Shown here: positions 114 through 20,000 of the stretch, in pieces
Numbering within the stretch: position 1 is the first letter of the stretch
Layout: every line of letters starts with the position of its first letter
NCBI GenBank assembly: GCA_000934665.2
Contig: KZ538104.1
Span: forward strand, 111,451-131,450
Source of the DNA: Catajapyx aquilonaris
Lineage: Eukaryota
DNA length: 20,000 bases
Direction: 5' to 3'
Notes under the pieces: generated by a model
Seen by the model: the letters and a program-made list of their open reading frames with translations, nothing else
What the model was told of the DNA's origin: nothing
Database searches by the model: none
Translations under genes and position numbers: made by a program

Positions 114-1075
114 AGCGAAATTCGGGAAAAACAAAAGCGTGACCTTGGAATCCATTTTCCGACCTTGAAAGTCATTTTGTGACCTTGAGACTTTTCGCCA
201 TTTGCAGCCAAATTCGGGAAAAACAAAAGCGTGACCTTGGAATCCATTTTCCGACCTTGAAAGTCATTTTGTGACCTTGAGACTTTTCGCCATTTGCAGC
301 CAAATTCTGGAAAAATAAAAGCGTGACCTTGGAAACAATTTTCCGACCTTGAAAGTCATTTTGTGACCTTGAGACTTTTCACCATTTGCAGCCAAATTCT
401 GGCAAAATAAAAGCGTGACCTTGGAAACCATTTTCCGACCTTGAAAGTCATTTTGTGACCTTCAGACTTTTCACCATTTGCAGCCAAATTCGGGAAAAAG
501 AAAAACGTGACCTTGGAATCCATTTTCCGACCTTGAAAGTCATTTTGTGACCTTGAGACTTTTCTCCATTTGCAGCCAAATTCGGGAAAAATAAAAGCGT
601 GACCTTGGAATCCATTTTCCGACCTTGAAAGTCATTTTGTGACCTTGAGACTTTTCGCCATTTGCAGCCAAATTCGGGAAAAATAAAAGCGTGACCTTGG
701 AAACCATTTTCCGACCTTGAAAGTCATTTTGTGACCATGAGACTTTTCAACATTTGCAGCCAAATTCTGGAAAAATAAAAGCGTGACCTTGGAAACCATT
801 TTCCGACCTTGAAAGTCATTTTGTGACCTTGAGACTTTTCTCCATTTGCAGTCAAATTCGGGAAAAATAAAAGCGTGACCTTGGAATCCATTTTTTGACC
901 TTGAGACTTTTCACAATTTGTAGGGAAATTCGGGAAAAATAAAAGCGTGACCTTGGAGTCAATTTTCCGACCTTGAAAATCATTTTGTGACCTTGAAATC
1001 TGTTTTTCGACATTTATTCCCCAATTTGTAACGAAATTCTGGGAAAAAAATAAACGTGTGACTTTGGATATCATT
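114..1075. repeat. 92-bp tandem satellite/minisatellite, ~10 well-conserved units with degenerate edges (traces at ~45 and ~1150)
   Basis: The anchor (G/A)CGTGACCTTGG recurs at 137, 229, 321, 413, 505, 597, 689, 781 and 873 (period 92), then at 945 (72-bp unit, one 20-bp subrepeat lost). Each unit has three GACCTTG subrepeats spaced 20 bp apart. Confidence 0.97.
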
Positions 1076-1760
1076 TTCTGATATGGAACATTGTTGTTTT
1101 ACACTTAAAATTGCAGTTCTTGTAGCAAAAGTCTAAAGAAAAATATTATCGTGACCTTGGACTGTTTTTTTTTTTTTCGGCCGACAATTTATAACTTACA
1201 ACCCACATGGGAATAATTATTTTGTAAGCTTAAAAATAGTTCAAGCAGCTTTCAAACTGCTCCTGCTGAATATCTGCTACAAAATGCAGGAAAGACCAAA
1301 TAAAGTTACATGAAATACCCTGGTAAATAATGGTCAATTCAAAACTATACTCGTGACACAATTGCTAGTAAAACGATAATGGCCTACACGGAATGCATGA
1401 TGCAGGCCTCCCCGAGTTACAAAATTTGCCACTCCATTGTGTGTGTCCGTGTATGAGCAGTTTGTTTAATGCTCCTGGTGCTAGACGGCTGGCAATGCTT
1501 GAATTGCAGGATGCCATAAATTCTGTCGGAATCCCACAGTTACACAGCTTGAAATGCAATCCAATTATTTTCCTAGCTGCAGAAAAATACATGGTTATCC
1601 TGGTAAATACTTCTTGATTGCTGTTACAGTTGGTGCGAAAACTGCAATAGCAATTTGGATCACCTTGCAATTTTTGGACCATGATACACTATTGTCTGAC
1701 ACTACCTTCATCATATTTATAATGAAATCAGCACCTAATGCTCTGTGGAATGCTTCCTCT

Positions 1761-1897
1761 TTGACCCATCGCATTTCCACAGGCAATAACTGTCACATTC
1801 TCAGCCAGCTCTGGAGAAACAACATGCACCCTTTGCGCACGCTTTTTCTCCTGAACAGCTTGTTTGTGAGGCACAGTTAGTCGAATGCCTTTTTTCA
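1761..1897 (-). pseudogene. Frameshifted remnant of the pogo DDE_1 catalytic-domain N-terminus, downstream of the stop codon
   Basis: The minus strand reads AAC T GAT GAA AAA A GGC ATT CGA CTA ACT (a broken N-x-D-E-K-G-x-R-L-T). In another frame, 1829-1761 gives VHVVSPELAENVTVIACGNAMGQ, which fits the pogo 'ENVTxxACxNAxG' motif. Similarity is lost beyond ~1760. Confidence 0.85.
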
Positions 1898-3449
1898 TCA
1901 GTTATAAATATTATTTGCGCTGTACATTATTTCCATCTCATCCATGATTGCCTTCAGCTTCCAAAAATATTTATTGACAATAGCCTGGTTCAACTTTTGT
2001 CCCCGTCCTGTATTCAGATGTAGTGCTCTCCTCTTTTGGATCTCTGGTTGCCTCCTGTAGAATTCCTTCAACCAATGCGTACCTGCCATTTTTTCTGTAG
2101 TGCTGAAGTTGTGGGGAATATGGTACGATTCAGCAAATGCATACACACTACGTCGCAGAAGTTTTGCAGTGAGTGGAATTCCCAAATATTCTAGTCTGAG
2201 CAATTCACTGACAAGTCTCTTCTCTTGGTCCATGTCTAGCATGCAGTGTCGACCCAGTTTCTTGATGCACTTGCCAGAGGTGACGTGATTCCGGAGAGTT
2301 CGTCGTGGTATCCCGTACTGATTTGCTGCTTGCAACACTGGGACACCTGTGGGTTACAACAGCACATTCTTATTAATATGAGAGAGAGGTTGTTGGTACC
2401 TTGACATTTAACTAATTCGTGATAATCGTGAAAAGTGATAACTACCTTATAATCAATATTTTGGGACCATGAATATGATGAAGTGGAAAAAAATTAAGTC
2501 ATTGCTTCGATTATAATCCAGCTAAATTTTCCTTTGTGCAAGCCACTTATTGCTATGTCCAAAATTGCTCGATTTGGACTCAGCTCTGTACCCCCAGGAG
2601 GGCCACTTTGTACCCCTGGTTGGGAACTCCTGCTGTAGAGGATGGTATCAATAACTTTATTACGGAGAAGGGACTTGAAGTAGCCATCGGTTCACTAAAG
2701 GTGAAATAGTCTCCCGGAATCGACGGAATCCCCAACATCATCCTAAAAAATGCAGGCCCAAGGCTACGAGAGCTGATGATCTCGGTAATTACTCCTACTA
2801 CAAATATTCATTCAGAAAGAGAAAAACCTCCCAAAAAACTCCGCCGTCAAAGAGTTAAATTCTCCTCATCAGGTCTATTTAATAGTGCATTATCTGATGG
2901 ACTTAACAAACTTTGGCATTAAATGCATCATGGCCAACATTATTACAGGCAAAATTTCCGACAATAAAGGTGCGTTTACATGTGAGCGATTTGACAATAA
3001 CAACGCTGAGTAATCCGAGTATTGTTTGAGGCGAAAATCGATTGTTACTTTCACCTCAAGCAATATTGGCTACATCACTTGGCGATGATTTAGCTCCGCT
3101 TCGCTTGTCAAATTGCTCACATGTAAACGGGGCTTTAAGGTGCGTTTACATGTGAGCGATGTCATCGCCGAGCGCCGAGTCCCAAACAATTGGATTCATC
3201 ACTCGGCGATCAAAAGGCTCACATTAATATGGATAAACATTATCCATCTTGGCTGGAACAACTGAAGACTTCACTCGTCAAATCGCTCACATGTAAATGC
3301 GGATTTAGACATAACAACTTCTTCAAGCTTCATAAATATTACATACCTCTTTTAACAGCCTTCATAGCACACTCCATGGTACGGATGTCCCACGTAGCAT
3401 ATTTTGGTCTGGACGCCATGCTCAAAATAAGCTGCATATATATTTCCAT
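1898..3449 (-). CDS. pogo/Tigger transposase-derived DNA-binding protein (HTH_psq + HTH_Tnp_Tc5/CENP-B-type), ~183 aa; join(3449..3347,2346..1898)
   Basis: Exon 1 reads MEIYMQLILSMASRPKYATWDIRTMECAMKAVKR G| (donor GTATGT at 3346). Acceptor ACAG at 2347 is phase-1 compatible and continues G-VPVLQAANQYGIPRRTLRNHV (psq HTH), LGRHCMLDMDQEKRLV...GIPLT...AGTHWLKEFYRRQPEI (CENP-B-type HTH), ending IYN-TGA. In-frame alternative ATGs lie at 3437 and 3419; a splice acceptor (TTTTCAG) sits at 3453. Confidence 0.8.
2586..2632 (-). mobile_element. Terminal fragment of a hAT (Charlie-like) non-autonomous element, intronic
   Basis: The minus strand reads CAGGAGTTCCCAACCAGGGGTAC...GGGGGTAC, resembling the hAT CAGGGGTTCCCAA terminus. 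It is flanked by CTGTAGAG, close to the CTCTAGAG-type target. The other end was not found. Confidence 0.5.
2968..3134. mobile_element. PIF/Harbinger-like MITE, copy 1 (167 bp), intronic
   Basis: ~30-bp imperfect TIR AGGTGCGTTTACATGTGAGCGATTTGACAA ... TTGTCAAATTGCTCACATGTAAACGGGGCT, flanked by TAA (2965-2967) and TTA (3135-3137), the TWA target typical of PIF/Harbinger. Confidence 0.8.
3138..3304. mobile_element. PIF/Harbinger-like MITE, copy 2 (167 bp), intronic
   Basis: TIR AGGTGCGTTTACATGTGAGCGAT ... ATCGCTCACATGTAAATGCGGAT, flanked by TTA (3135-3137) and TTA (3305-3307). Confidence 0.8.
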
Positions 3450-3741
3450 CCTCTGAAAAGAAAAATTAGATAAGCATAAGCAACTGGCTCATACCATAGA
3501 CACTGCACCTTACACAAACATTACCAAATAAAAGTTATGGTGTATACTACCCCAAGTCGGAGAAAAAGAATGCAGGTGAGTTAGTTTGTATGCGCAGGAA
3601 TTATTTTCCAATTAGGCTCTTCTTCAGCTTCAGCGGTGCAGAAGAACAGCTTCCAGATGTAGCCTCTTGGCCTGCACTGTGGTTTTATGTAACGAAGTGG
3701 GTAATGATAAACATGATTATGTCCGAAACCTGTCCAATGTT

Positions 3742-5949
3742 TTATTTCCGTATCTCCGACACTGTCACTTCGTTGCCTAACGAGTAGCTTTGAACTAGGG
3801 CAATAAGCTGTCTCTCACACTGTAGTTTCAGATGTGTTGGGACATCTTCTCTTAAAATTCCCATCAGATAATCTCCTAACCTTGAGTAGCGGTCTGCTTG
3901 CGGAGGCTGAACCGCAAGTGCTCTAAAATAAAGGAAAATGCAAGTGTAAGGACACGAATGCAGAAATGGGTGAAAATATTACTGGTTGTAAGTTTGGTTT
4001 GGTTCACTGAAGCAAATATCACCAATACCATGAAGCATAAATTGATTTATCACTATTAATTATGCGGATAGCATGAAGAGTATGTCTGTAGCAGATGGGG
4101 AAAATGCAGCTGTTGATATGTGGGCTAGTCTAAATACACTAATATCTAATGTCTATTAGAGCTTTTTTGTCTGTCCTCGTCAGCTGTGAATAATGTGCAT
4201 TTCTCACTTGTTCAGTTGATCAAGTTCATAGTCAATTTTTTGGACCATCTCCTCCTCTTGATCTGCAGTCCTGGTGTTCGGCCTCTTTTTTGGGCTCCGG
4301 TTTGCAGTGGGAGAAGACTTGGGAGACATAAAAGGGGCCTGGGATGAGGGACAAGGAGTGGGTCTCAATGAATTGGACGAGCTTGGAATGACAACCAAAT
4401 ATGAGGTAGGTGCAGGGGTCACTGTATGTCCTGCAGTGGGAGGAATTTCTTCATTCTTCTCTTCTTGTTCTTCTTCACCGTCCCCCGTAGTCAACTCAAC
4501 CACAGGTTCTATTGAGAGCTCCTGAGATTCAACTTGAGGCTCCCCCAAGTCCAGCGGCTCAGCAAAGATGCCTTCCTTCTGGCAGGATAACACTGACTGC
4601 TCTCGGTTCTTCATTCTAGGCTGCAAACTGCCCATCGTCCTGAAAATGACGATGCCATTAAAAACCACAGAGCAAGGTGGACAGTAAGAGTGCCTCTGAA
4701 ACCTGGCAACATATTAAATTTTAAAATTATGTATCAAAAAATATGGCACATTTCTTGTGCATTGTAAAACTGCCGACAAAAACATGTCGCAACATTTGAC
4801 ATATACCAAAATGTCTCACAATGAAGTGTCCCACCAATTTGATACTTACTTCCTGGATCCAACCCTGTTCCGCATGAAGAGCATGTCCTGAAAGTGGGCC
4901 CACTTCACACCAACCGCACCATGCGATTTAGAAGCATTGTGGTAGGCAACGCGAAACTGGTCCACCAAATTCTTCCAGCTCGTTTTGCATTGGTAACCTG
5001 CAATGAAATAATTCAGATGTATACAGTACTACTAATGGCACGTGTCTTATACCAATTCGAGCAGAAGACGCTCTAGTGGAAAATGTGCTTGTAGGAACGA
5101 GACTGATACTCACTGGTCATTCCCATTTCCTTTGCGACCTGTGACCACAGTAGGTCACCAAGTGCTTTGTCCCTGTAGTCCTGGCGGCACTTGTCCCATA
5201 GAGTGGGCCTGGCGTGTACCTCCCGAATGAGTTTTTCCTTCTTCAGTTTTTCTTGGGCGCGTAGCATTGCTCGTTCCGCCTTCGTCTTTGCCCTGTCGAG
5301 TCTGCCTGGAGTGGGAAATGAAGAGGAGAGGAGGTGGTTGGGGAAGCTGGAAAGTGGAGGGACTGGTCCAGGGGGCCGCTTGTGATTGCAAGTGGCAGTG
5401 AGGGCTTCAAATCACACTTTCAGAGCAGTTAGAAAATTAATCTTTTGCTCACAGTGTGTCCAAACTTTGCACAAAAGAGCCCGAATTTTCTTGCTACGAC
5501 CAGTCCTTCACGTGAGTGTCATGCGTCCCAAGTTTTTGCTTACAATTCGAATCTGCCTACATTGTTGCCGACAATAAACTTCAACGTACATTTCAACTTT
5601 TCCTTCGCTACGTCCTATGAACAAAATAATTGTTGTCCAAACTTAATTTTACAGACCATTTTACATCAGTCAGCTTACCATGAGTATTGGCCATCTTGTG
5701 TCCAAGAGTATGCGTCACCATTGACAAGGCAGATTTGGACGTCATCTGAGACGTTAGTTTGTCAGTCCCCGTCGTAGTGGATTCAGGCGAGTCAGCTCTG
5801 GGTTCAGAAGATTCCATTTCGGCTGTCACCATATTCTCAGGAACAGCATCCATCATCGGCTCTTCCTTCACCTCCATGTTCCAAAACGCCTCAGACTCCA
5901 TCATCTCCTCCTCTGTCTTCATAGCATAGCCTGCCACCTCCAATGCCAT
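3742..5949 (-). CDS. MADF (Myb/SANT-like in Adf-1) domain protein with C-terminal BESS-like motif, ~407 aa; join(5949..5679,5305..5114,4997..4850,4639..4208,3922..3742)
   Basis: MADF signature EKLIREVHARPTLWDKCRQDYRDKALGDLLWSQVAKEMGMT|SYQCKTSWKNLVDQFR...KWAHFQDMLFM, then an acidic and S/P-rich linker, then DRYSRLGDYLMGILREDVPTHLKLQCERQLIALVQSY (BESS-like). All four introns are GT-AG with matching phases (1,1,2,2); total 1224 nt, open to TAA. The first exon is less certain; a shorter form could start at ATG 5267. Confidence 0.87.
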
Positions 5950-6053
5950 GGGTCTGTCAAAAATTCTAACATTAGCGCCAAGCGCATGAAACGGAACTGG
6001 GCGGCAAGACTGGTCACTCATAAATGGACATTAGTATGGGCAGTTGCTTTTAC

Positions 6054-6093
6054 CTGCTGTGCAAATACTCTTCCTTGTTCCGTTGCCTTTGAC
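6054..6093 (-). other. Probable 40-bp upstream exon (5' UTR or N-terminal extension) of the MADF gene
   Basis: Minus strand: pyrimidine tract CTCCTCCTTTCCTCAG|GTCAAAGG...CACAGCAG|GTAAAAG. Splicing to the acceptor TTTTTGACAG at 5954 keeps the frame open (QRQRNKEEYLHSRPM). A further candidate donor GCG|GTAATA lies at 6240. Confidence 0.5.
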
Positions 6094-6249
6094 CTGAGGA
6101 AAGGAGGAGTCGGCCAGGTACACCTCAGCGGGCATGTAGGTCAACCTCCAGCAGGCTGATAGAAGCTGTCTGCTGCAAATGCCAGGAAATGGGTCCTGCT
6201 CAGATACTAATTACTCTCTAATAATTACAAAGCTTATTACCGCCATGTG

Positions 6250-6650
6250 AGCAGGCCTTAACAGACTCTCGTTTCGGCTGGTTGGAGATGATGAAAAAGA
6301 ACAAGCTTGACAGTCGGCCATCTTTGACGATGGGCTCATTCCGACCCCTGCTCTCTTCAGAACCGTTTCGAGTCATCTCCACACAGGTGGCAGCACTGAT
6401 CGATACCGTATTCGCAATGTTACCGTATATTCCCACCAAATATAGAACAATTAGCAAAAGCTCAGGTGAATCACATTATTGTAAACGCACAATTCGGACA
6501 ACAATATTCCGCTTCATTTTGCCTGCATGTTGCCGATTGTATGAACCACAAATTAAGCCATTGTTTCCATAAGAGCATAACCAGGCGGGGGTTATTCTTG
6601 CAGAAATCTACGGTATACCGTATTCGTAAAATGTTCTATTTCGTTCGAAC
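6250..6650 (-). promoter_or_regulatory. Putative promoter/first-exon region of the MADF gene
   Basis: Positional inference: lies between the upstream exons and the start of the repeat field and is visibly CpG-richer. Contains a 7/8 DRE-like site (TATCGATC on minus, 6398-6405) next to TGGCAGCACTG. No TSS can be fixed. Confidence 0.3.
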
Positions 6651-7198
6651 CTCATTCTATTTAATCAGTTTGTTTGGAACACAAGCTCTTATGGTTTCCA
6701 TGGCACCCACATGCTACATGCGTTCCAAACATATCCGTCTCCATGGCGATTCGAATGGGAGTCAACAACAGCAGCAGCCAAGACAGCAAAGCGTGTCCAT
6801 TGGCAACCGATCGAATGTGTTCTCGAGTGTTGTCAACAACAATCGGTCAGTCTTGCTCCGGCCGAGGTAGGGTTCGGTTGTGTCTGTCCGTGTCTCTCCT
6901 TCCAGTGTATATCGCAACTGTGTTGCCAAACATATATAGGTCAGGGCTGGTCAGGGGGTATCTTCTCAAATACTGTCTGCTCTTATTGTCGGTGTATATT
7001 TCTTCTTTCCCGACCTTCATGTGGTGGGGTTTATGGCATGCGAGGCACTCTTTCGTCACAGCCTGCTTCTAAAAATGGTTTAAAATGGTCTCGTCCTTAT
7101 AACATAATATCGTGTGACGTGACGTCTCAATGTGTGCTGTTTTGTGCTGGTTGTACAGTCAGTATTTCATGTAAGAAGAATATTACTTTGTGAATGTA

Positions 7199-7305
7199 GA
7201 ATGGAAAACGAGAGAACGATCTGACGTCATCGTTTCTTCCATTGTTGCTTTTGAATGTTTCCATGGAAACTGTGATGACGTCAGATCGTTCTCTCACTTT
7301 CAGTA
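7199..7305. mobile_element. ~105-bp MITE-like insertion with a perfect 22-bp inverted repeat
   Basis: GAGAGAACGATCTGACGTCATC (7210-7231) is the exact reverse complement of 7274-7295. The segment is absent from the paralogous position near 13190. Confidence 0.7.
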
Positions 7306-8160
7306 GGTACATTATCTTGTATCACATATTCGGTGCTGGTATAAGGTGCGTGTACTATATTGTATCGCACAATTACGCGCCTGATTATATTTTATAATAC
7401 CCTAGCCTTCCTTGGGTGCTTTGTATCATCCGCATTAAAAAATTAATGGTAATGATATTATGGACGGGGGTTTCCTGAAGCTTCTCTGTTATGACGTATT
7501 TCTCCACTATTTCAATGTAAGTCTTATGATTGAGCATTAATATTGAGTGATGCTTTTGTACTGTGTGTGCAAATATCATTGGATGCAATGAAAAGATGGA
7601 TTGGATTGGTTGCTGATTTTTGTCTCCAACATTTCTGTTGCTCGGGGAGGGCACTGGTGAAAGAAAGCTGTTCACTTGCTCATTGTCAAGATCGAAGAAT
7701 ATTACCCGCAAGGAGGTTTCCTCTCATTTTTCTGTAATATTAGAGTAACTAAAATCTCGTGTCATCTGAAACTTTGTTCGCAGATTCATCTGGATCAATG
7801 CAAATTTACACACAGATTACTGTTACACGGAATCCTATTCTGCTTGGCGGATTCACCGATTTGTTTACATTATTGTTGACCTATAAGGTAATGGAAATCA
7901 TTACAATAGAGTATAATATCTTGACCATATTGATCTCTGTGTGCAATGATGCGTATCGCGCACTGGCTGTGTGATTATTCCGGTCAATGTTACGGTTTCG
8001 TAATGCAAACGTATATCAAGCATCACTCACATCTCTCTTCACAGAGTCAGTCGAAATGCACCCTCGGCCCACGGTTTTAACGCTGGAGTGTGTCTCATCC
8101 ATAAAGTTTCGATACACAAGGACTCCTAGATCATATCTATAGTGTAACATAACTATACTG

Positions 8161-8221
8161 AACCCGTCTTACAATATCAATTTCGGCCAGCCAGGCCGAA
8201 ATTGATATTGTAAGACGGGTT
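8161..8221. repeat. Perfect 28-bp inverted repeat with a 5-nt spacer (hairpin/cruciform; possibly a collapsed MITE)
   Basis: AACCCGTCTTACAATATCAATTTCGGCC-agcca-GGCCGAAATTGATATTGTAAGACGGGTT. Confidence 0.95.
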
Positions 8222-8899
8222 TCACATTAATAGTCTATAGCGTCTTGTACAGTTCAGTGTCACGCAAGATTTTTGGAGCATATATTTTATAAGGGAATTT
8301 TTCCTCAATCGTTTCACTCTGATCTCCCTTGACAGAGGAGGAGCATTAATTTTTAGGGAGCTTCTTTAGTTATTAACATACATATATGCACATGAGGCCT
8401 TTCAGGTCTGCACGTGTCCATCTGGTTGTTATAACATAACAATAATAGAGTAATAATGAAATGACATAATAGTAGAATACATGAGTAGAATACACCGTGA
8501 AGGGTTTACTGGAGGCCTTTTAGGTCAATGTCTTTCAATTACTGACGATGTGGGGACTTGGAATAGCTGCAGGAATGCAATACCGGAATATTTCCAGTGC
8601 ATGGTGCTACCCGTAATGTTGTAGCAATACCAAAAGCATGGGGTTTATGTCTCACTCTTGGGCCAGGTGGGTGGTGGTCGTTGAAATCGGCATTTGAAAC
8701 CGCTGCGCTGGTTGGCTAGGCCACCATGACAAACCTCTACTTACTGTATGTACAGTACCACCATATACGGCCCAAGCTTCTGGTTGTTGCGCCTCGACAT
8801 GCTCAACAATGAGACTTCTGAAGGCCAGTGTAAAGAAATAATTACTCTCGTCATTATACCTTCTTCCTCTGCCTTCCCGACACAAATAGTATAGCCTAC

Positions 8900-9329
8900 A
8901 AGAAAAATGATTTTTTTAAAAATTACGCAGTGTTGAAAACAAAATTTCCCACCAGGCATCTGTATGTACATTTCTCAAGTTCTTCAGGGCAAACAGTTGG
9001 AACGAGGTGGGGGTGTGAGGTAGGGGTGAGGGGTCATGGGGTCAAATATTCTGGGGAAAAACATGATGGCTGTGCAGTCTTTTCCTGGACCAACTCCATC
9101 CCCATTCCTCTTTTTACACATCCAATCAGAATTGACTACGCTATAACCAAAGCAGGCAATCTATCACAGATAGTGACAAACTTTGGCTTATTGTAACTTG
9201 GCCTTATTTTAAGGTGTATCGAGTTCCAGTGTACGGAACGCAAATTTTACAAACAAACAAACTTCCAAAAATATACCCGTACCTTTAACAGCATCCCAAC
9301 ATACCCGGGCAACGCCGGGTAACCTGCTA

Positions 9330-9330
<1 letters not shown>
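8900..9330 (+). mobile_element. Non-autonomous Helitron; 3' end clear, 5' boundary approximate
   Basis: GC-rich hairpin TACCCGG-gcaacg-CCGGGTA (9302-9321) followed after 5 nt by CTAG (9327-9330) and T, the canonical Helitron 3' terminus. Similarity between copy A and copy B is lost across this interval. Confidence 0.65.

Positions 9331-9375
<45 letters not shown>
9331..9375. repeat. (TAA)15 microsatellite
   Basis: Read directly. Confidence 0.99.
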
Positions 9376-9376
<1 letters not shown>

Positions 9377-10689
9377 CAGTATAGTCTTTGCCTGTCGCTG
9401 TTAAAAAGGGCAAGTAAGTTCAAGGGATCAGAATTCGTCTACATCACGCATATGCTTTTTGGATATGGAATGTTGAAATCTGAGTCCTGAGTCTCCTGAC
9501 ACTGCCTTTTGAAGTTTTGATACCAAATCGGCGGGGTTTCAGTTGTGCGTGGTTCCTGTCGATGGTTCATATTTCGATTAATTTGTGCATGCACAAGTTC
9601 CTATTGCCGTAGTACAATTATTGAATAATTAAATAGGCTAACTACTGTATATTGCTTCGGCATGGGATGATGTGTAACATTTGGTCGTCCAGGTGTAACT
9701 AAGTCTGTAGTTCCTCTCCATGTACAGTGTTGCATCGTCCAGAAACCACTTTTCTAGGTCCCATAAAGGTTGTTTCAGTACAAAATTGTCATGATTACTG
9801 GATGCGTACAGTACGCAGTAGGTTAATGAAAGTAATTTATTGTGTCTAATTTAGTCACGTTCATCAATCAGCATTACTGGCTGCATCTTGGGGACCTCTG
9901 GAGTCCTGCGATTGGTCTACAAAAATGCTGAGAACGTTGAAAGCACATTATTTTCGTGCTTCTTAGCACGGCTTGTTATCGTATACCAACTCCCAGCTTT
10001 TTTGGTTTACTGTCGTAATAAGCATTATCTGGACTGTATACGATTCACGTTGGTACGATGCTTACTGATGTATCCATGAGTAACGTCAAGTATGGCACAG
10101 CTGATCAGAGTAAAATCTTTACTCTAATCAGTGAGAGCAGGGACACAAATGAGGCAGTCTTGAAAGTAGATATGAAAATGGCAATGTAAAAATTCCCTGA
10201 ATTTTCTGCAGAATGACGGCTTTATGCAGGTTGCAAGCGTATTACAAACATTCTCCGGACATTGAGTTATGATTATCTTGAGATAGAATGCTGCTGATTT
10301 TAAGGCTCTTCTGCAAAAATGGCATGGTCCTCATCAGTGACTCGCCAATCCTATGCCTCAAGACCCCGGAGCCAGGTCAGGTCGATGATGAGGTTGGAGG
10401 AGGCAAACGTCGCGTCGGTGCCTCAGCAGACACTGAACAATATCACTGTGACCACATTCGGCGAATGCCACCGTATGCTCACTTGTGCAACAGTGATGAA
10501 TTTTGGAGTGGTAATCAAATGCACCAAGCCTTACAATTTGAGGTTATTTCGCAGACAGTGCAACTTGTCCGCTCCCAGAAGATATTAGTACATATTTCTG
10601 CGTGAGACATGCAGTGTCGTCCAGACGATGCATCAAAGAGAATGGAGCATGATCTGGAGCATGGCTGTTTACTCGCACATTTTTAACAA

Positions 10690-10793
<104 letters not shown>

Positions 10794-11649
10794 GTTTGTT
10801 TGGAACAAGCTGGGGTCGCCATGGCACCAGATTGTCTCCCCTGGCAACCGTCGTTCCAAACGACCGTCTTGTTCTCGTTTACATGCCTTACAACCATGTG
10901 GTTTACAATGTAAAGCGTCAATAAGTGTTCAACAAGCCGAGTCCGAGTCTGCGGTCGATTGCATTGCATCTATCAGTGTTGCAAAGCTTATCACAACTGT
11001 GGTTAGTGAAGCCTACTCAAAGGTTATCTTCTTCCAAATACGTCTGCTTTCCTGATGCTTTTCGGATGCTTTCCTTGTGCTCTGGGTACCTGCTTCCTCC
11101 GCTCATGGTGCAGTCAACTATATGTCATCGGGTTGTTGAAGTCAGTATAGGTCGGTGTCTGTTTTTTGGGAAACGATATATATGAACCCTCATTGTCATC
11201 TGCCAACCATACGAGTAACTGATAAATGGCATGAGGCACTCATTGTCACAGCCGGCTTCTGAAAATGGTTTTAAATGGTCTTGTCCTTACTCATAAGCTC
11301 TAATGTATACGTAATGGTGCGTCAATGTAATCTGTTCCTTGTGATCCATCAAACGACGGTGTGTTGGAAACAGAGTGGCCGGGGGCAATGGAAATACTTC
11401 AACCACTTCAACTACTTGTTGCTATACGTCATTACAATGTAGTGCCACTTGTTTGTTCTCTGTCGGTCTATAGTCTCCAAACAGGTTCCACAGCATTGAC
11501 AGCATTGCACCGCACTTCTTGGAGTTGTCCGCAATATTATGGTGCCTCGTATCTGCGTCCTTCTTCTCTCGTCACTGCATCGCGTATGGTTTTTAGAACC
11601 TCGGCAGATTTCTTTTTTGCCAAACCTCTTCACCTATATCATTGTTTTC

Positions 11650-11650
<1 letters not shown>

Positions 11651-11723
<73 letters not shown>
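11651..11723. repeat. (AAT)24 microsatellite
   Basis: Read directly. Confidence 0.99.
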
Positions 11724-14207
11724 GCTATCAAGTGACAGTCGCATGCAAATGGGTCCTACCGCAGAGCCAATATGACCGATACTATTTGATGATTTATGTG
11801 ACTGAGATGCTGACGAACAGTCCTGGTTGGAGGACTGTGGCTGGGGCATAAATTATAACTTCGACGTAAGAGTGTCTTCCTCACAATGCCAGACAATGTT
11901 ATAGTAAACTAGACGATAAATGGAGAGGCTGAAGTATACTTTATCTTGACAGGCAGGGTGTGAGTTCTGTGTGGTGGTTTTTCTGTGTGGTGGTTTATGA
12001 GTGGTTAAGTTCACATGCCACAATGTGCACGGCTTCCAGTGCAATCCTGTTGGGTTCTTCATCATGTCGTGGACTCATTGCAATAACCCATAACATGAAC
12101 CAGAATGTGTATATTCCAACAGGTGCGAGGAAGTTGCATTGCAGCACCGGAGCAGGAGTTCAGGTTCGATAGACGTTCTTGATATAATTTTGGTGTTATC
12201 CCAGGCGGTTGACTCAGGTTTGGTCTCATAGAGCTCTGCTACAATAGTCGTAGAATTGCTTCTTTTGACTTCAAATGAAGCTGCGTCGGTCTGACGGTCT
12301 TACAATATCTTATACAGGTGTAATGTAGAACTTGATCAATTCCGTCACATCTTTATGGGGCAGCATCTTTCAATTCCAGTTCGTGGATTTCACAGCGTGG
12401 ATCACTTAACGTTTCCAGTGTCCAATGGTCGCGTGTGAGTCATGCCTTCGTCAGTGGCTATAAATTGTGTCAAGGCTATATCAGAGATTCAAGGATAATA
12501 ATACTACTACAATGAGAGAGAGAGAGAGAGTGGTAGAGGCCGGTTGACCGCCTAATATATTGTGAGACGTGCAGTGTAATCATTTTGGGTAGCACTAGAA
12601 GATGTTCGGAAGTGTTATTGCAATTATCTGGGAGACCATTCATATCAATGTGTATGTAGGAGGCCTCAAATGTATGAATCAAGCAACCACTTTGCTTTCT
12701 CCGGCACACCAGCATGTGCAGAATTTGGTCCGAGTGTGTGCTGATCTTGACGATCTTACAATAGCAGCATTAGCATTGATCCTTCCTAGCCAGCATGGGC
12801 ATTTTAGGAGTTTGGAGCAGAAATGGTCACTTTTTTACAAAACAGTACGTCAACAAAATGACGGCAGCACCCGACTTTTTCCTTCTCGGGTATAATCATA
12901 ATGTAAAATATCCATTTAACAAGTGAAACACTCGACCTGTGTAGGGTAGTCCTTGGGTTATAGTCAGAGTGACACACATCCGACATATTTTTTGTAACTT
13001 CTTTGCACATGACCAAGCCACGAAAAATTGTTGGCAAGATTTATTTGCCCAGCCTCAGGCGAGGCTCGGGATTTATTATGATGCTTCACCCTAACATTTC
13101 CTAGACGTTCTATATGTTCTGTGTTTTATCCCGGTTTTGTGCTGGTTGTCCTGTCAGAATAATTTCATGCAAGAAGTTATGAATGTGTAGAAGCTATCTT
13201 ACATCACATATTATGTGACTAAGGTGTTATATTGTAGCGCATAAGAATTTATTATGCGCCTGGTTATTATTTTAATATTCGAGCCCTTGTGTTCCTTTGG
13301 CGCTTTGTATAATTCACACTCAGGGCACCTATACTGAGATGCATATAAGCGTAATGTTAAGAATAAGTATCCAGTAACCAACTTCGGTTTGCAGGGCGGT
13401 TCATTGGTATCCTCGTGGGAACCGAAGTTTGCGAGATCTCTATATAGTTGCGACAAAGTTCATTATGGGATCACTCATCTCTCGCTACCTGGATGTGTTC
13501 TCGGCACCACAAAACTGGCGAAAAGGCTGAAAAGGGTTTTACAAAAGTGGTGGAGGGTGAGAAAAGTTGACATTTTTGCAAGCCATGTTCACTAGCAATA
13601 ATTTATTACCGCAGGACTCGCCAGCCTGCGAATCCACGTTTAACTCTGGCACAATATTCAGTGTTCCTCTATTAAAATTGCTGGCGCCTAGCTGCATTAT
13701 TTAATTTCTTCTGTTTATGGCTTGTGACACCATCAAATATTAGTAAGTTATAAGTTTCTCTCTGTCACTAAGTTGTTTCTGACTTAGTGTAGCCACAGCA
13801 TGCTGCTGTTGCTGCTCCACAACGAGCCTATTAACTATGTGGCTAACCACTAGTAGTAGTTATAAGTATTATAATTTCCCAAACGTCAGGTGGGTGCCTG
13901 AGTGCCTCTCGTACGATTCTCAATAGATTAGAAGCCTGAATAAAGAGCGAGACGACATTATTTTTTCATCGCCCGTGACACACGAAAGACTATCCTTCGA
14001 GATTTGCTTTGCCCAACTCTTCACGGGTCATTGTTTTCGAACAGTGTTCTAAGCTTGGGTCCTCTCTGTGCGCATGCCAAATGTTTCATCTTAGCTCGTC
14101 TTCATTCGAGGGAGTCTACTTCTAGTGTGAATAAAGCAGTGCCTGTATAGTGCAAACCAATGATGTTGTGGTATGATTGGTACACTAAGTGCAACTACTT
14201 AACCAGT

Positions 14208-14245
14208 TAATAATAATAATAACAATAACAATAATAATAATAATA

Positions 14246-14325
<80 letters not shown>
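14208..14325. repeat. Compound (AAT/AAC)n(GAT)n microsatellite
   Basis: Read directly. Confidence 0.99.
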
Positions 14326-14958
14326 AAGGGGCCTCAAAGCATTCCCAGGCCTAGAAGTGCGGTTGAGATGAGGTGATGTTCGTGATAATTTTGGAGCTTT
14401 GGCGTTATTCCGCGTGAAATTAGCACTTGGTCTCTGTAAATATGTACGTGCCACAGTGTGTCATATAGACCCGTATTTATCTCCTGCTCAAAGGCTTTTT
14501 CCAAGCCTTCATGCGGGATTCTATAATATTTGCTGCAAGTATACCAACTTGGAAGATCCAAAAGGTCTTCTAGTTTCTTGTAATTCATCAGTCATCATGT
14601 GAAAATCATGGAATACCCTCTGTGGACTTCCTATGGAGCCCCTTCTTAGCATGCTTCTTGACCAATTTGTACCTACCATCATCATTCCGTTGGAGAGGTG
14701 TTCCTCTATTCAGCAGAGCGTTCGCAATTCTTCGACCCCGTTGGTCGCCGTTGGCATTCTGTGGCTTCGTACTTGGAGGCCACAAATGCTTGTATCTTTT
14801 TCAGCTCTGGCCCTTTCTTGACATCATTTTAGTGTTGTGAGGGCGTGGGATATTGCGAGATCATAGTTAAAGGATGGGCGGGGCATGGCAGTCTCAGTCT
14901 ATTGGGCAGAAAGGATGTGAATCCTATAGTCATCCACAATGTATATGCATATAGTATT

Positions 14959-14978
14959 CAACAACAACAACAACAACA

Positions 14979-15022
<44 letters not shown>
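14959..15022. repeat. Compound (CAA)n(CTA)n microsatellite
   Basis: Read directly. Confidence 0.99.
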
Positions 15023-15679
15023 ATCACGACATTTCCCTATGAGGGGTAGTCAGCGATGAAGGGAGACGCAAGCTAACCCAACATATGAACTAATAAAACT
15101 CACGAGAATAAACCTAAAAACAACCTGTCCCACCCCCCACCCCTGCCCACCTCAGACATCACCTTATCCTCAGACATATTTTATATTTACCTATTTACCC
15201 ATTAATTAACCTACCGGCGCCATTTACACCTATCCAAACAAACAACCCTAGCCTCAGCCACGTCCATGGTCCTATTGACACAAGAACGTCAAGAACGTTT
15301 GGTGTATATCGTATTTGACTAGTTAAAACGGACTTTAGAGTGGCCTTAGTTCATACTACAGTGATGACTCTGAATACTGATCTATATTTAATGTTGCACG
15401 CTAAGTCACCAACCAACCGTCACGGAATGGACGTATAAGCCAGTTGTAGAATCTCATCTTCATTTTCCCGCTGATTAATGTGAAGCTATACTTCGCAGAT
15501 TGGTGATTGCGCCGCTTTGAAACCAATGCATCAGAAACCAATGGATTAATGCAATGATGTTAAGTGCGAAGGTTATACAGTCATAACACTAGGCCTGTAA
15601 TATTGATGGGCAGCCTATGACACTGTCCTCTTTTCTCTCTTCGTTCATATCTCCATCTAGGCCCTATATCCCATCTATA

Positions 15680-15907
15680 CAGTGTCTAAAATTGATATGT
15701 AAAACGTCTACAACAGACAGGGAGCATTGGTTGCTTTGGATCTATTCCATTTAAAAGAAAAAGAAACTGGGAAAGTATTTTGGTTCAAGTCAGGTCGCAC
15801 CGGGTCGCACCTACAATAAAGCCAACTTGTGTGTGTATAGTGTCCACACCGCACCGCGGAGAGTCATAAGGTGTATTAAAATGTGTCCTCTACTTTGGAA
15901 CACCTTG
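15680..15907. mobile_element. Possible Tc1/mariner-type MITE remnant
   Basis: The left end TA-CAGTGTC and right end TTTGGAACACCTTG (reverse complement CAAGGTGTTCCAAA) resemble the common TACAGGGTGTTCCAAA terminus, but the two ends match each other poorly. Confidence 0.3.
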
Positions 15908-17100
15908 CATAACTCCAAGTGGGCATTAATTTTTAGGTATAGCTTATTGATTTATTAACTATAAATATAAAGAACAAGAGGCCTTCATTCAGCTCTACAA
16001 GTGTCCATCAGGTTGTAATAACTAAGCATAATATATTCGAGTAATAATCGAATAGGTCGTGAAAGGCTTGCTGGGAGCCGGGACTTTTAGGTCAACATCT
16101 TTCAAATCACCGGCGTTATTCATTGACTGCTCGGTGTGGGATATTTTGATGTTGTCTTTGAGATTGTAGAATCCCGAGAGAACCCATCCGGGTACCCCCA
16201 TCCGAACACGGACAGAACCCGTTAAAACTATCAGTATACGTGAAAGGTTGCCCCGGGTTGCCCTCCGTCCGAACTGGGGATATGACCGTCCTCAGTGTTG
16301 GAGACCTGTGTGGATGTGTGCTTGGCGGTAACTTGCAGCTACAGACTTCCATAGTAGTCCATTTGGCAGAGTCTGTACTAACGTCTCGTCCAGATGAACA
16401 GGACCCTCAGCACAGAAATACAGTATATTTCCAGTGCATGCTGGCGTTATCCGTAATGCGGCACAATACCACAAGCACCCGGACCACACGGACTAGTCTC
16501 TGCCAGACGTCACTTCCCACTTGTGCCAGGTGGTAGTCACTGCAGTCTTGGAACGCGACTTCAGACCTCTGGCTGGCGAGGCCACAATGGCAAACCAATA
16601 TATACACACGCTGTATACTGACGTACCACCATGAGGCCCAAGAGCCCAAATCAATGACTCCCTCCGACTATGAGCACGCCACATATTCACAACATATCCA
16701 TGGCACTGAGTCACACCTTGTGTACAGAAATATGACAAGGGGGCAGACCAGCAGAGGATCTAATAATTATTTAATGTGCATCAAAGCCACGTCTTTGCTG
16801 AAATCACTGACAGTACAGCGGTACAAACTGCCCTTCTCTCTGATGTTGAGTAATGAATCGCAGCAGGCGCATCTCATTCTCCCATATGTTGATGTAATAG
16901 GCAAGCGGATTCCAATATTGTGATATACAGGTCACAAGGCTACAGGTTCGGTTTACGGGGACAGTCCCGTACACCGCATTATCATGACACATTGACACAT
17001 GTGCTGAGCTGTTGGGGTATGGAGTGCATATTGGCAGGGTGTCACAGAAAAATGTTAACAAGACCGCAGTTTTTGACATTTCATATGTCCTCATCCTAGT

Positions 17101-17205
<105 letters not shown>

Positions 17206-17411
17206 CCAGTGGTCTTTGCCTGTCACGGCTGTTTAGAAAGGGCAAGTAAGTGCAAGGGCAAGGATGAGAATTCCCATGTTATTTTGAGTTACTCCAGATG
17301 AACACGCGCCACATGTCAAGTTACCTACTTACGTACTCACCCGTGCTCACAGTGATGCTAAGCATTAGCTACACATAGTTGTAAGTTTATACGGACACTA
17401 GCCAAGTGTCA

Positions 17412-17496
17412 GGGTCCTTTTAGTTATCGCAAGTTTCTCCAGAAGCTGCACAAAAATGGCAGCTCCTGAAGAAATTTGCTATAACTGAAAGGATCC
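17412..17496. repeat. Imperfect 38-bp inverted repeat with a 9-nt loop (85-nt hairpin)
   Basis: 17412-17449 against the reverse complement of 17459-17496: 32/38 matches, no gaps. Confidence 0.9.
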
Positions 17497-17784
17497 GAAT
17501 ATACTGTATGTAAGATAACATACTGTAGACTTTGTGGACCTGCTTCTCCTATAGCCTATAGTCCATATCAGGCGAGTATTAAGGGCTTATGCAAGCAGCA
17601 AGTATCCGTCGTTTTCAGGCAATTGATATTTCCTATTTTCTCTTGTCACGTACTAAGACTGTCCCATTACTAGGTTGATTTCGGTCACTCGTGCCACACC
17701 CACAGCAGGTCTGGTTTAAACACTTTGCCATGCGCATGATGGAAACATCACGCTGACCTGAGTTCATTTCGAATAATTAATAAA

Positions 17785-17817
17785 GTTGTTGTTGTTGGAG
17801 GAGGAGGAGGAGGAGGA
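17785..17817. repeat. Short compound (GTT)4(GGA)n microsatellite
   Basis: Read directly. Confidence 0.9.
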
Positions 17818-19798
17818 CATTCGATGCATTTCAAACCTGTCCACATCACACATTTGCTTTGCGGATATGGAATGTTCAAATAATTGAGTCCTGGCACTGC
17901 CTTTACATTTGATACCAAATCGGCGGAGTTTCAGGTCTGAAAATGTGTGCATGGTTATTGTCTATGGTTCACAAGAATTTGTGCGTAATATATTCCAAAT
18001 TCCAATTATTGGTTTTGGCTCGTGTGGTAACGTAGTATAGCATATAGGCTTACTACTACTATAATAATTGCTTCTCCATGGGATGATGCGTAACAAGTAA
18101 TCAAACCCATTGGTCGTCCAGACAGTTATTATTATAAGCTCACCTCAAATTGAGGAGCATCAAGTTGGCTTATGTTTGTGTTGCACCATCCAGATCCCAC
18201 TTTTCTCGGTACTATAGGAGGGTTTGTTTCATTACAAAATATATTGTCAATGATAGTTACCCTACTGGATGCATACCATAATAATTATACTGTATATAGT
18301 ATAGGTTAATGAAGGTAATTGTGCCTAATATTACGCACGTTAATCAATCGGCTTTACCCGGCTTTACCTACGGCTGTAGCATCTTGGGACCTCTGGAGTC
18401 CTGCGATTCGTCTACAAGAAAGCCGAGAATGTTGAGCACATTTCGTGACTCGTAGCTTGCACAGTACATGGCTTTACAACATATACCTCTCTTCTGCTGT
18501 TTGCTCGTCATAGGCTAGTTTTCTAGCTAGTTCTATCTAGTTTCTATCTGGATGTTGGTACCATGGTCGGTACAATGCTTACGCGTCTGTATCATAGATC
18601 ATTTTTCAAAGTGAATAAAAGAATCAAGGAGGTATATGCGTATATCCCGACGAGACATGTATTTGCTTGTGATTTTCACTTGTGAGTAACGTCGATCAAC
18701 CAATCAGTAATCAGTTGATAGATGTAATTGTAGTGACTTCGTCGCCACATGGTTATCTCAGCTCCTTATTTTAAGGCAGTCACTTTTGCACATATACGTT
18801 TAATAGTCATCAAGAATATTATATTCATAAGTGAATCCAAATATATGAATTTCAACGGATGTCCGATAGGCAATGGTCTATTGGAACAGTCATCATCGGA
18901 CATCAATGATGCAGCCAATTTTTTTGCACACCAGACCCCCTTTGCATGGTGTTCAAGGTGTCTATCTTAATATGATGTCGTAATTAGAAGGCACACTTGA
19001 GAACATTATATCGTAATATGCCAATATGTGTAAAATCTTATAGTGGCTCGCACAATACAAATAAATAACGTATAAGTAAATTTGATAGTGTTCTGACTAA
19101 CTTCTGCCAATAATATTAGTAAAGGTCAGGTAAAGGTAGTTTCCCGCTCCGTCCATATATGGATTATCGTCAGTTTCTATGCCAAAGCAATATTATATTC
19201 TGCTGAGACGAGTCCCTCAAGAAACTGCAGCCATGCTCAGAGGCAAGGCCTTCAGACCAAGGAACATTATCGTAGCTCTCTGTATCTCACCTTAGCGCCG
19301 AGACCGAGCATCAGGGAGTAGGAGCCGGGGATGTGGCTTCAGATGAGGTCCTATTATGGTGTATTCAGCAGGCCATCACTGCAACTTCCCTCCTTGGTGA
19401 TATGTCACGTGGGTCATCTGACTTCACACCCTTTGCAGCTGCGATAGGCTCAGGTTTCAATATGAACCTGTTGTATCATAAGAATAATATCAAAATCCAA
19501 ATGAAAAGGCGCACACATGCACGTGTGTCGCAATGGAATCACAATGCAACATTCGAGCTCAATGACACATCAACTTTCCCTCCCATCCTCAAAGACATGA
19601 TTTGCATTAAGTCCTCGTCTGTCTACACAAAGTGAACTTGATACGCAGCTATTTTTGAATGGTACCACACGAGGAAGAATTCGGACAATAATTTTTGGAG
19701 TTGCAATCTACAGACCAACTAAGTCCAGTCCCTTTGATCCTTTCATCGCCCTCTCCAACTCACCTCTGGGTAAAAGAAATACCGTATATAGAGATCAG

Positions 19799-19928: not shown

Positions 19929-20000
19929 ACTTTTTTTCTCCGCCTCTGACTATCTCTCCCTGCTTTCAACCCAAGTTCCTCTGTCTGACGCTAGAGGTCA

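What the first reader, a model, noticed from the sequence alone, without database searches (positions are those of the whole stretch)
1761..3452. Candidate domesticated pogo DNA-binding gene (CENP-B/JRK-like), cut exactly at the first catalytic Asp
Seen: 183 uninterrupted codons covering both HTH domains across a phase-compatible 1000-bp GT-AG intron. A small frameshift turns N-x-D-E-K-G into N-TGA-TGA, and the next ~140 bp of DDE sequence has further frameshifts before similarity vanishes. No pogo TIRs were found, and the TE insertions I could recognise here all sit in the intron. Known: pogo transposases have been domesticated repeatedly (CENP-B, JRK/TIGD, Abp1/Cbh, CAG). Inference: an intact DNA-binding half with a wrecked catalytic half points to selection on a host DNA-binding protein or transposition repressor, possibly an independent lineage-specific event.
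Basis: partly seen in the sequence, partly recalled or inferred. Interest (0 to 1): 0.75.

Follow-up and report, generated by a model that had tools for sequence, protein, structure and literature searches.

The report
Truncated pogo transposase with intact DNA-binding half
This is a cut-off copy of a pogo-type jumping gene that can still encode its DNA-binding part and seems to be transcribed and spliced, but nothing yet shows that the host uses it.

Summary
On the minus strand, 3419-3347 and 2346-1901 join across an exactly 1000-bp GT-AG interruption. The joined frame is open for 173 codons, or 183 from an upstream ATG that has no homology. It carries a psq HTH and a Tc5/CENP-B HTH (Pfam; fold Z 7.8 to CENP-B 1HLV). 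At the family's N-x-D-E-K-G motif two small indels give TGA TGA. A further 53 codons of the transposase core follow in one other frame, then homology stops at about 1737. Profile positions 280-664 of the family are nowhere in the window.

New evidence:
- In three DNA runs of one sample, no second contig at least 90% alike lies on exon 2 or the remnant.
- A run from another sample, which behaves like RNA, has a contig that leaves the genome exactly at the predicted acceptor. Its upstream exon ends in AG, as exon 1 does.
- The DNA-binding part keeps 25 of 28 family-conserved residues.

Against domestication: no orthologue is available, so selection is untested. The catalytic remnant is nearly as well kept as the DNA-binding part, so the break may be young. 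A diverged second version of exon 1 carries a frameshift.

Verdict: a single-locus pogo relic. I put domestication (Drosophila CAG-like, DNA-binding part only) at about 0.3. Interest is modest.

The parts
3347..3419 (-). Exon 1: ATG 3419 plus 24 codons and one base. It encodes the N-terminal arm and first helix of the psq HTH. An in-frame, non-homologous extension reaches ATG 3449.
   Evidence: Sequence. Alignment with relatives. Family profile positions 60-84, E 0.1. tblastn to P0001 residues 4-27, E 0.028. No Pfam hit on its own.
2347..3346 (-). 1000-bp interruption with GT..AG ends in phase 1. AGGT stands at both junctions. About 570 bp is unique sequence; the rest is repeats.
   Evidence: X5 contig 25 fits 2001-2348 and then leaves the genome, with 10 more letters.
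2965..3307 (.). Two adjacent MITE copies, 2965-3137 and 3142-3307, with 31-33-nt terminal inverted repeats, inside the interruption.
   Evidence: the repeat finder pairs I1, I2, I4. Summed depth about 5,000-10,000 against about 27-40 for neighbouring unique contigs.
1901..2346 (-). Exon 2: 148 full codons holding the second half of the psq HTH, the Tc5/CENP-B-type HTH and the linker, up to ...NNIYN.
   Evidence: Pfam. Family profile 85-232, E 1e-58. 46-49% identity to P0003, P0004 and P0005. AlphaFold2 pLDDT 86.4. CENP-B 1hlv_A at Z 7.8, rmsd 2.8 A over 62 residues.
1895..1900 (-). TGA TGA at the family's N-x-D-E-K-G motif. Two indels: the x codon is reduced to one base, and there is one extra A in the A-run.
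   Evidence: No variant at this place in DNA runs X1, X2, X4.
1737..1895 (-). Out-of-frame remnant of the transposase core: 53 codons in one frame with no stop. Homology ends here.
   Evidence: tblastn 44-53 aa at 51-52% identity. Family profile 236-279, E 1.6e-9. Pfam DDE_1 not detected on it.
3742..5949 (-). Neighbour, given as context only: a five-exon MADF gene of 407 aa on the same strand. Its stop codon lies 322 bp upstream of ATG 3419.
   Evidence: MADF profile 1-43 and 44-84. X5 contigs join 5678/5304 and 5112/4995. Canonical splice sites and an open joined frame.

Best explanation
This is an immobilised 5' fragment of a pogo-superfamily DNA transposon, and I found no second near-identical copy. 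The copy lost its catalytic half: two small indels at the N-x-D-E motif, and a loss of everything beyond about residue 217 of a transposase of roughly 600 residues. It also lost any recognisable ends, so it cannot move or cut.

Its DNA-binding half has not yet been hit. It is interrupted by 1 kb that carries GT-AG ends. The locus is transcribed at a low level, comparable to the MADF gene 0.3 kb upstream, and the interruption is spliced out. The mRNA can therefore give a 173-residue psq + Tc5 HTH protein.

Shown: the anatomy, the homology, the lack of a second copy at 90% likeness or more in one sample's DNA, and use of the acceptor. Inferred: that the donor is 3347, that the protein is made, and, my main commitment, that the open frame reflects a fairly recent break rather than host selection. 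On this reading the locus is a relic, or at most a raw candidate at the very start of domestication.
For: Homology and truncation.

The catalytic remnant is about as well kept as the DNA-binding part. It is 51-52% identical to the three closest relatives, against 46-49% for exon 2. It has no stop in 53 codons. It keeps 7 of 10 conserved columns, against 25 of 28 for the DNA-binding part. So little time need have passed since the break.

Only one lesion cluster and one breakpoint lie in about 720 bp of homologous sequence. With so few lesions, a clean 519-bp stretch is not unusual (my estimate is P about 0.06-0.24).

A second version of 3252-3535 from another sample has +T behind 3364, inside exon 1. 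Five of its six listed exon-1 substitutions change the residue.

The window has Y where 39 of 51 relatives have R, three residues before the psq Trp.

No protein more than 53% identical appears among 1498 hits in a library of 1.84 billion representatives or in the word-indexed searches.

Comparable TIR-less, low-copy transposase fragments in Drosophila were judged to be debris when synteny and clean splicing were missing (PMC13548663, section 10 read).
Against: A young relic of an active family should have sister copies. None at least 90% alike lies on 1367-2368 in DNA runs X1, X2, X4.

Time has clearly passed. Two MITEs and another repeat landed in the interruption and none in the 519 coding bases or the remnant.

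The 1-kb interruption restores the family's reading frame without gain or loss of a residue. Relatives read straight through that point. X5 contig 25 breaks exactly at the acceptor, and its two preceding letters fit an exon ending in AG.

The DNA-binding part is as close to 28 full-length relatives as they are to each other (mean identity 36.3%, rank 15 of 29). Its three departures at conserved columns are conservative: I>L, K>R, P>A.
Confidence: 0.55

Rival explanations
1. It is a real lineage-specific host gene of the CAG type: a pogo transposase reduced to its DNA-binding part, kept by selection as a sequence-specific DNA-binding protein. It could act as a chromatin or transcription factor, or as a repressor that occupies the ends of related elements. 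Its 1-kb intron would have been acquired or kept after immobilisation.
For: No second copy at 90% likeness or more in DNA runs X1, X2, X4, and depth equal to the neighbouring unique contigs. No TIR pair. The 173-codon frame is intact across a precisely placed GT-AG interruption. The acceptor is used in X5, at a depth (3.85) like the MADF exons (2.3-3.6). 25 of 28 conserved columns are kept. The model is confident and CENP-B is the best structural match, 3.5 Z units above the next. All recognisable repeat insertions are in the intron. Precedents: CAG lacks DDE_1 (PMC4231638, passages read), and a young mariner-derived gene gained an intron (PMC13548663, section 9 read).
Against: Selection is untested because there is no orthologue, no synteny and no dN/dS. 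The DDE remnant is not visibly more decayed than the DNA-binding part, which a long-kept gene with a dead 3' tail would predict. A frameshifted second version of exon 1 exists. X5 is not on record as RNA, its contigs are shallow, and the donor was not seen directly. A gene on the same strand ends 322 bp upstream, which could supply read-through transcription.
Confidence: 0.3
2. The 1-kb 'intron' is simply nested insertions that broke an intronless transposase frame. The GT and AG are the chance AGGT of the target site. The X5 contig boundary reflects a structural difference between individuals, or cryptic splicing of read-through RNA, with no meaning for the protein.
For: Relatives read straight through the junction. 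AGGT stands at both ends, so an insertion with a short target duplication would give the same picture. At least 430 of the 1000 bp are repeats. Only 10 unaligned letters lie beyond the boundary, and I could not see them.
Against: X5 shows canonical exon-exon joints with no mismatches in the neighbouring gene, so it behaves as RNA. The intron-exon 2 continuity is absent from X5, otherwise contig 25 could not run through the junction (my reading of how such contigs are built). The boundary falls within 2 bases of the predicted acceptor, out of about 350 possible places. No terminal repeats or known element account for the outer, unique parts of the interruption.
Confidence: 0.1
3. The pogo exons are 3' exons of the MADF gene, making a host-transposase fusion made by exon capture.
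For: Same strand, 322 bp apart. There is an acceptor-like site TTCTTTTCAG|AG at 3453/3452. The mechanism is known in vertebrates (bioRxiv 10.1101/2020.05.07.082677, abstract seen).
Against: The MADF frame ends with TAA at 3744-3742, and AATAAA overlaps it. None of the four MADF donors is in phase 0, as the site at 3452 would need. None of them ends in AG, as the X5 contig at 2348 requires. X5 has no cover on 3538-3871.
Confidence: 0.03

Closest known systems
Drosophila CAG (pogo-derived, CENP-B-related gene)
   Same: A composite psq/CENP-B_N + HTH_Tnp_Tc5 DNA-binding part with no DDE_1 domain, explained there by a deletion inside a pogo copy. No TIRs (PMC4231638, passages read).
   Different: CAG meets six criteria, including dN/dS 0.08, conserved synteny across the genus, orthologues and lethal alleles. 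None of these could be tested here. Our locus still carries a recognisable DDE remnant.
LOC26532114 of the Drosophila obscura group (young mariner-derived gene)
   Same: The N-terminal HTH is kept and the catalytic domain lost. It is lineage-restricted, modestly expressed, has an intron absent from the ancestral element, and lies close to a host gene (PMC13548663, section 9 read).
   Different: That gene has four syntenic orthologues and dN/dS 0.7. Its intron is in the 5' UTR, whereas ours splits the psq HTH. It belongs to a different family (mariner, not pogo).
CENP-B, JRK/JRKL, TIGD1-7, POGK, POGZ; fission-yeast Abp1/Cbh1/Cbh2
   Same: Derived from pogo/Tigger transposases, with the same type of DNA-binding part. 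CENP-B 1HLV is the best structural match to exon 2 (Z 7.8).
   Different: Most derive from complete transposase genes and keep the DDE_1 region (PMC7386202, abstract and passages read). Sequence relationship to our piece is remote: the PDB sequence search found no CENP-B at E<=1.
Ordinary truncated pogo/Tigger copies ('genomic debris')
   Same: A 5' fragment with a frameshift and a deletion breakpoint and no ends. Such copies were set aside in surveys (PMC7386202 methods passage; PMC13548663 section 10).
   Different: No second near-identical copy, an open 173-codon frame across a spliced interruption, and transcript evidence.
Truncated-transposase repressors such as the P-element KP protein (recalled; PMC7776569 seen only in a search listing)
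   Same: An N-terminal DNA-binding fragment without catalysis could compete for element ends.
   Different: No related active element was found here for it to repress. This is purely an analogy.

Membership tests
pogo superfamily transposase (IS630-Tc1-mariner group) | N-terminal HTH_psq / CENP-B_N-type helix-turn-helix | tested here: met
   Pfam HTH_psq on exon 2 (profile 21-37 of 45, 20.8 bits, cut-off 20.4). The first half lies on exon 1, collinear with the family profile (E 0.1) and aligned with relatives. The domain is only whole after splicing.
pogo superfamily transposase (IS630-Tc1-mariner group) | HTH_Tnp_Tc5 second DNA-binding domain | tested here: met
   Pfam E 1.9e-5, 25 bits, cut-off 22.2, profile 3-65 of 66. 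Fold match to CENP-B residues 70-131, Z 7.8.
pogo superfamily transposase (IS630-Tc1-mariner group) | DDE_1 catalytic domain with the D-D-D/E triad | tested here: not met
   Only 44-53 codons of the core's start remain, and they are out of frame. Pfam DDE_1 is not detected. Profile 280-664 is absent from the window. The rest could lie beyond the window's start only if a stretch of more than 1.7 kb had been inserted.
pogo superfamily transposase (IS630-Tc1-mariner group) | Terminal inverted repeats with TA-type target duplication | tested here: inconclusive
   No inverted-repeat pair flanks the piece. The 3' end is missing, however, and a lone 5' TIR cannot be recognised without other copies.
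Domesticated transposase gene (criteria of Feschotte & Pritham as applied in PMC4231638; PMC13548663) | Single or low copy, immobile | tested here: met
   One contig, no second one at least 90% alike, on 1367-2368 in DNA runs X1, X2, X4, with depth 21-40 like the neighbours. This is one sample only. Copies under 90% are invisible, and a diverged version of exon 1 exists in X5.
Domesticated transposase gene (criteria of Feschotte & Pritham as applied in PMC4231638; PMC13548663) | Intact coding capacity evolving under constraint (dN/dS < 1) | not testable with these tools
   The frame is intact, but no orthologue is available. The only comparison is six substitutions in exon 1 against X5 contig 27: five change the residue and one is silent.
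Domesticated transposase gene (criteria of Feschotte & Pritham as applied in PMC4231638; PMC13548663) | Orthologues at a syntenic position in other species | not testable with these tools
   No genome is held for the window. The MADF neighbour found no relative in the protein collection.
Domesticated transposase gene (criteria of Feschotte & Pritham as applied in PMC4231638; PMC13548663) | Expression with reads that respect the exon-intron structure | tested here: inconclusive
   X5 contig 25 (depth 3.85) fits 2001-2348 and then departs, which is consistent with the 3347|2346 junction. X5's kind is '?', the donor side was not seen, and exon 1 in the window's own form is not covered.
Domesticated transposase gene (criteria of Feschotte & Pritham as applied in PMC4231638; PMC13548663) | Phenotype or biochemical function | not testable with these tools
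   No data.

The most novel reading that the evidence does not exclude
A domestication caught at birth. A pogo copy lost its nuclease through a frameshift and a deletion, yet its psq + Tc5 DNA-binding module is kept open. It is split by a 1-kb intron that arose at an AGGT protosplice site after immobilisation and has since served as a safe landing pad for MITEs. It is expressed next to a MADF gene, while the dead DDE stub is still legible. That would give a dated, stepwise example of how a CAG/CENP-B-type host factor begins, including intron gain inside a helix-turn-helix.
Probability: 0.25. Interest if true: 0.5.

Novelty: new member of a known kind. Interest (0 to 1): 0.3.

Why it matters
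Pogo transposases are among the most often domesticated transposases (CENP-B, TIGD, JRK, POGK/POGZ, CAG). Almost all known cases are old, so their first steps are inferred rather than seen. If this locus proves to be under selection, it would show an early stage: the nuclease freshly disabled, the DNA-binding part preserved, and an intron newly accommodated. If it is not under selection, it is ordinary transposon debris, and a useful reminder that an open frame, a missing TIR pair and a transcript do not by themselves make a gene.

Tried and rejected
- Whole-genome search: no genome is held for this window, so no copy census or paralogue search was possible.
- Sequencing runs: no RNA holder is listed. 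I laid the one '?' run and three DNA runs instead.
- X5 has no cover on exon 1 in the window's form, on 1901-2000, on the remnant or on 3538-3871. This is no evidence either way.
- Earlier findings of the scan: none by place or by sequence.
- Metagenome scan for relatives: 166 pattern matches, none confirmed.
- Protein search with the MADF exon, to learn whether the collection covers related species: 60 candidates, none significant.
- PDB sequence search with exon 2: only chance-level rows, E>=0.037.
- Foldseek on PDB: nothing at E<=0.001, with CENP-B first at E 0.11. The VIA second look gave Z 7.8.
- ESM Atlas: only generic psq/Tc5 clusters.
- MADF-pogo fusion: rejected on splice phase and on the AG rule.
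- Programmed frameshift at A AAA AAG: rejected by reading. Both TGA codons precede the slippery run in the zero frame, and the +1 frame does not lead into the remnant's frame.
- More DDE remnants: none in 1-1737. There is one isolated 23-residue 'LLIFDG..SH' match at 13675-13764(-), E 0.027, with no collinear neighbours.
- A reverse-transcriptase-like stretch I thought I saw at 2710-2919(+) and a BESS-like last MADF exon: Pfam finds neither.
- Looking for the same intron in relatives: of 154 stored proteins, 55 hold the GIPRRTL-like motif near the N-terminus. By eye, those that begin upstream of the junction continue homologously across it. I cannot tell which of them come from DNA and which from spliced models.
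- Complex prediction and the second structure job were not used.
Full report
**What is there**

The window is eukaryotic and no whole genome is held for it. On the minus strand an ATG at 3419 opens 24 codons plus one base, ending at G 3347. GTATGT follows. At 2348-2347 stands AG, and from 2346 the frame runs on to AAC at 1901, followed by TGA TGA. The interruption is exactly 1000 bp, with donor GAG|GTATGT and acceptor CCCACAG|GT. Aligned with relatives, the family's N-terminus (M..KRA.W) matches MASRPKYATW from ATG 3419. The homologous frame is therefore 173 codons, and the ten-codon extension has no counterpart.

**Family**

Pfam on exon 2 alone finds two domains:
- HTH_Tnp_Tc5: E 1.9e-5, 25 bits, cut-off 22.2.
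- The second half of HTH_psq: profile 21-37 of 45, 20.8 bits, cut-off 20.4.

Exon 1 alone gets no Pfam family. It does lie collinearly on a profile I built from 28 full-length relatives (positions 60-84, E 0.1) and on P0001 residues 4-27 (tblastn E 0.028).

The closest proteins in very large collections are only 42-53% identical:
- 2 hits of near length among 7 candidates.
- 3 longer hits among 278 candidates: 325-630 residues with psq, Tc5 and DDE_1. Two are named by their sources as unnamed products of a butterfly and a beetle.
- 1498 hits at E<=1e-3 in 1.84 billion representatives, 6 of them at E<=1e-30.

Pfam on six of these relatives confirms psq (all six), HTH_Tnp_Tc5 (five) and, in the four longest, DDE_1.

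An AlphaFold2 model of exon 2 with 46 relatives is confident (pLDDT 86.4). Foldseek ranks the CENP-B DNA-binding domain 1hlv_A first but weakly (E 0.11). VIA-align gives Z 7.8, rmsd 2.8 A over 62 residues, on CENP-B residues 70-131. The next row is at Z 4.3. A PDB search by sequence found nothing meaningful.

**The break**

Relatives read ...IYN-[M/I]-D-E-K-G-C-R-L. The window reads AAC TGA TGA AAA AAG GCA. T-D-E-K is legible one base over and K-K-G-I-R-L two bases over. The simplest account is two small indels: the x codon is reduced to a single T, and one A is added in the A-run.

One frame, 1895-1737, stays open for 53 codons. It matches relatives at 51-52% identity over 44-53 residues and matches profile positions 236-279 (E 1.6e-9). 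Homology then stops abruptly.

Profile positions 280-664 are nowhere in the 20 kb, and a relaxed tblastn adds nothing in 1-1737. Only 1736 bases remain to the window's edge, so a remainder beyond a large insertion cannot be excluded. However, 1247-2464 is one unique contig in the DNA runs, which fits a deletion breakpoint better.

That this D is the first catalytic Asp is recalled, not tested.

**Copy number and assembly**

Three DNA runs of one sample, which may be the source of the window, each give a single contig on 1247-2464 with no difference. Their depths are 40.1, 34.9 and 21.2, like the neighbouring unique contigs. No second contig at least 90% alike lies on 1367-2368. No variant or indel is reported at 1890-1900. 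So the frameshift is not an artefact of one assembler, and there is no near-identical sister copy in that individual. Copies under 90% likeness would not be seen.

No inverted-repeat pair flanks the piece. With the 3' end gone, that says little.

**The interruption**

It holds two adjacent MITEs, 2965-3137 and 3142-3307, with 31-33-nt TIRs. Their summed depth is about 5,000-10,000. A moderate repeat lies around 2465-2553 (bin depth up to 753). The remaining 570 bp or so are unique.

Relatives read homologously straight across the junction point. The interruption therefore looks specific to this lineage, though I cannot tell which relatives are spliced models. AGGT stands at both ends. That fits both the splice consensus and an insertion at a protosplice site.

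**Transcripts**

No run on record as RNA holds the stretch. One run of another sample, X5 (kind '?'), behaves as RNA. Its contigs join 5678/5304 and 5112/4995 with no mismatch. These are canonical GT-AG introns of the neighbouring MADF gene.

By my arithmetic on the depth bins, the loose ends of two more contigs fall at 4639 and 3922. That completes a five-exon, 407-residue MADF gene, 5949-3742. The MADF profile halves are found.

X5 contig 25 (358 nt, depth 3.85) fits 2001-2348 without a difference. It then carries 10 letters that do not fit the intron. The two extra matching bases at 2348-2347 are what one expects if the upstream exon ends in AG, as exon 1 does (...AAAGAG). All four MADF donors end otherwise. 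So the acceptor appears to be used, and a MADF fusion is unlikely. Splice phase also argues against a fusion: no MADF donor is in phase 0 for the acceptor-like site at 3452, and the MADF frame ends in TAA with an overlapping AATAAA. I could not see the 10 letters, and the donor is inferred.

**Evidence against a kept gene**

1. The remnant is about as well preserved as the DNA-binding part. Identity to the three closest relatives is 51-52% against 46-49%. It keeps 7 of 10 conserved columns, against 25 of 28. It has no stop in 53 codons. A dead tail of an old gene should look worse.

2. X5 contig 27 lies on 3252-3535 with 10 substitutions and 4 indels. One indel is +T behind 3364, inside exon 1. 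The contig is unspliced and runs 45 nt into the first MITE. Of the six listed exon-1 substitutions, five change the residue. It is either an allele or a duplicate made after the MITE landed. Either way, one version of this exon is broken. At codon 7 the other version has the family's R where the window has Y; R is found in 39 of 51 relatives.

3. No orthologue can be examined. A metagenome scan, the earlier findings of this scan and a search with the MADF exon all came back empty.

**Evidence for a kept gene**

- No sister copy at 90% likeness or more, although enough time has passed for three repeat insertions. All three are in the intron, and none is in 519 coding bases.
- A precise, apparently used splice that restores the frame.
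- A DNA-binding part as close to 28 full-length transposases as they are to each other: mean identity 36.3%, rank 15 of 29. Its only departures at conserved columns are conservative.

**Comparison with the literature**

Pogo domestication is well documented: PMC7386202 (abstract and passages read), PMC7325037 (passages read) and PMC4231638 (passages read). Forms that keep only the DNA-binding part exist: CAG, CG4570, and a young obscura-group gene with a newly gained intron and dN/dS 0.7 (PMC13548663, abstract and sections 9, 10, 20 read). The same paper shows that TIR-less single-copy fragments without synteny and clean splicing are best treated as debris.

**Verdict**

My odds:
- Transcribed relic or pre-domestication state: about 0.55.
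- Host gene under selection: about 0.3.
- Insertion artefact with meaningless splicing: about 0.1.
- MADF fusion: about 0.03.

At best this is a new member of a known kind.

Noticed in passing
window 114-996: A tandem satellite with a 92-bp unit, 8.6 copies, 95% matches. It also reads as a 276-bp higher-order period. It lies about 740 bp beyond the point where pogo homology stops.
   Followed up: no
window 3742-5949 (-): A five-exon MADF gene of 407 aa. The donor of its fourth intron (GT at 4207-4206) overlaps an in-frame TGA (4206-4204), so an unspliced message would end there. X5 contigs support the splicing. The last exon looks BESS-like by eye, but Pfam is silent. No relative was found in the protein collection.
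   Followed up: partly
window 3637-3828, 4461-4619, 1288-1301: In the DNA runs, a second version of these stretches (at least 90% alike, 14 substitutions plus 4 gap letters over 192 bp at 3637-3828) stands at about the same depth as the window's version. This hints at a partial paralogue of the MADF gene's 3' half, or at very divergent haplotypes.
   Followed up: partly
window 2965-3307: Two head-to-tail MITE copies of an abundant family, with TIRs of about 31-33 nt. Summed depth is about 5,000-10,000 against about 27-40 for neighbouring unique contigs.
   Followed up: partly
window 13675-13764 (-): An isolated 23-residue match (NLLIFDGVTSH...) to the second-Asp region of the pogo family profile, E 0.027. 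It has no collinear neighbours, so it is either a chance match or the last crumb of an older element.
   Followed up: yes
window 9331-17205: Many long pure trinucleotide microsatellites, several of them compound: ATA x20 next to AAC x14 at 10692-10793, TAA x13 next to ATG x27 at 14208-14325, and TAA x21 next to ATC x13 at 17104-17205. No Pfam domain turned up in the 20 longest frames of 6000-20000.
   Followed up: no
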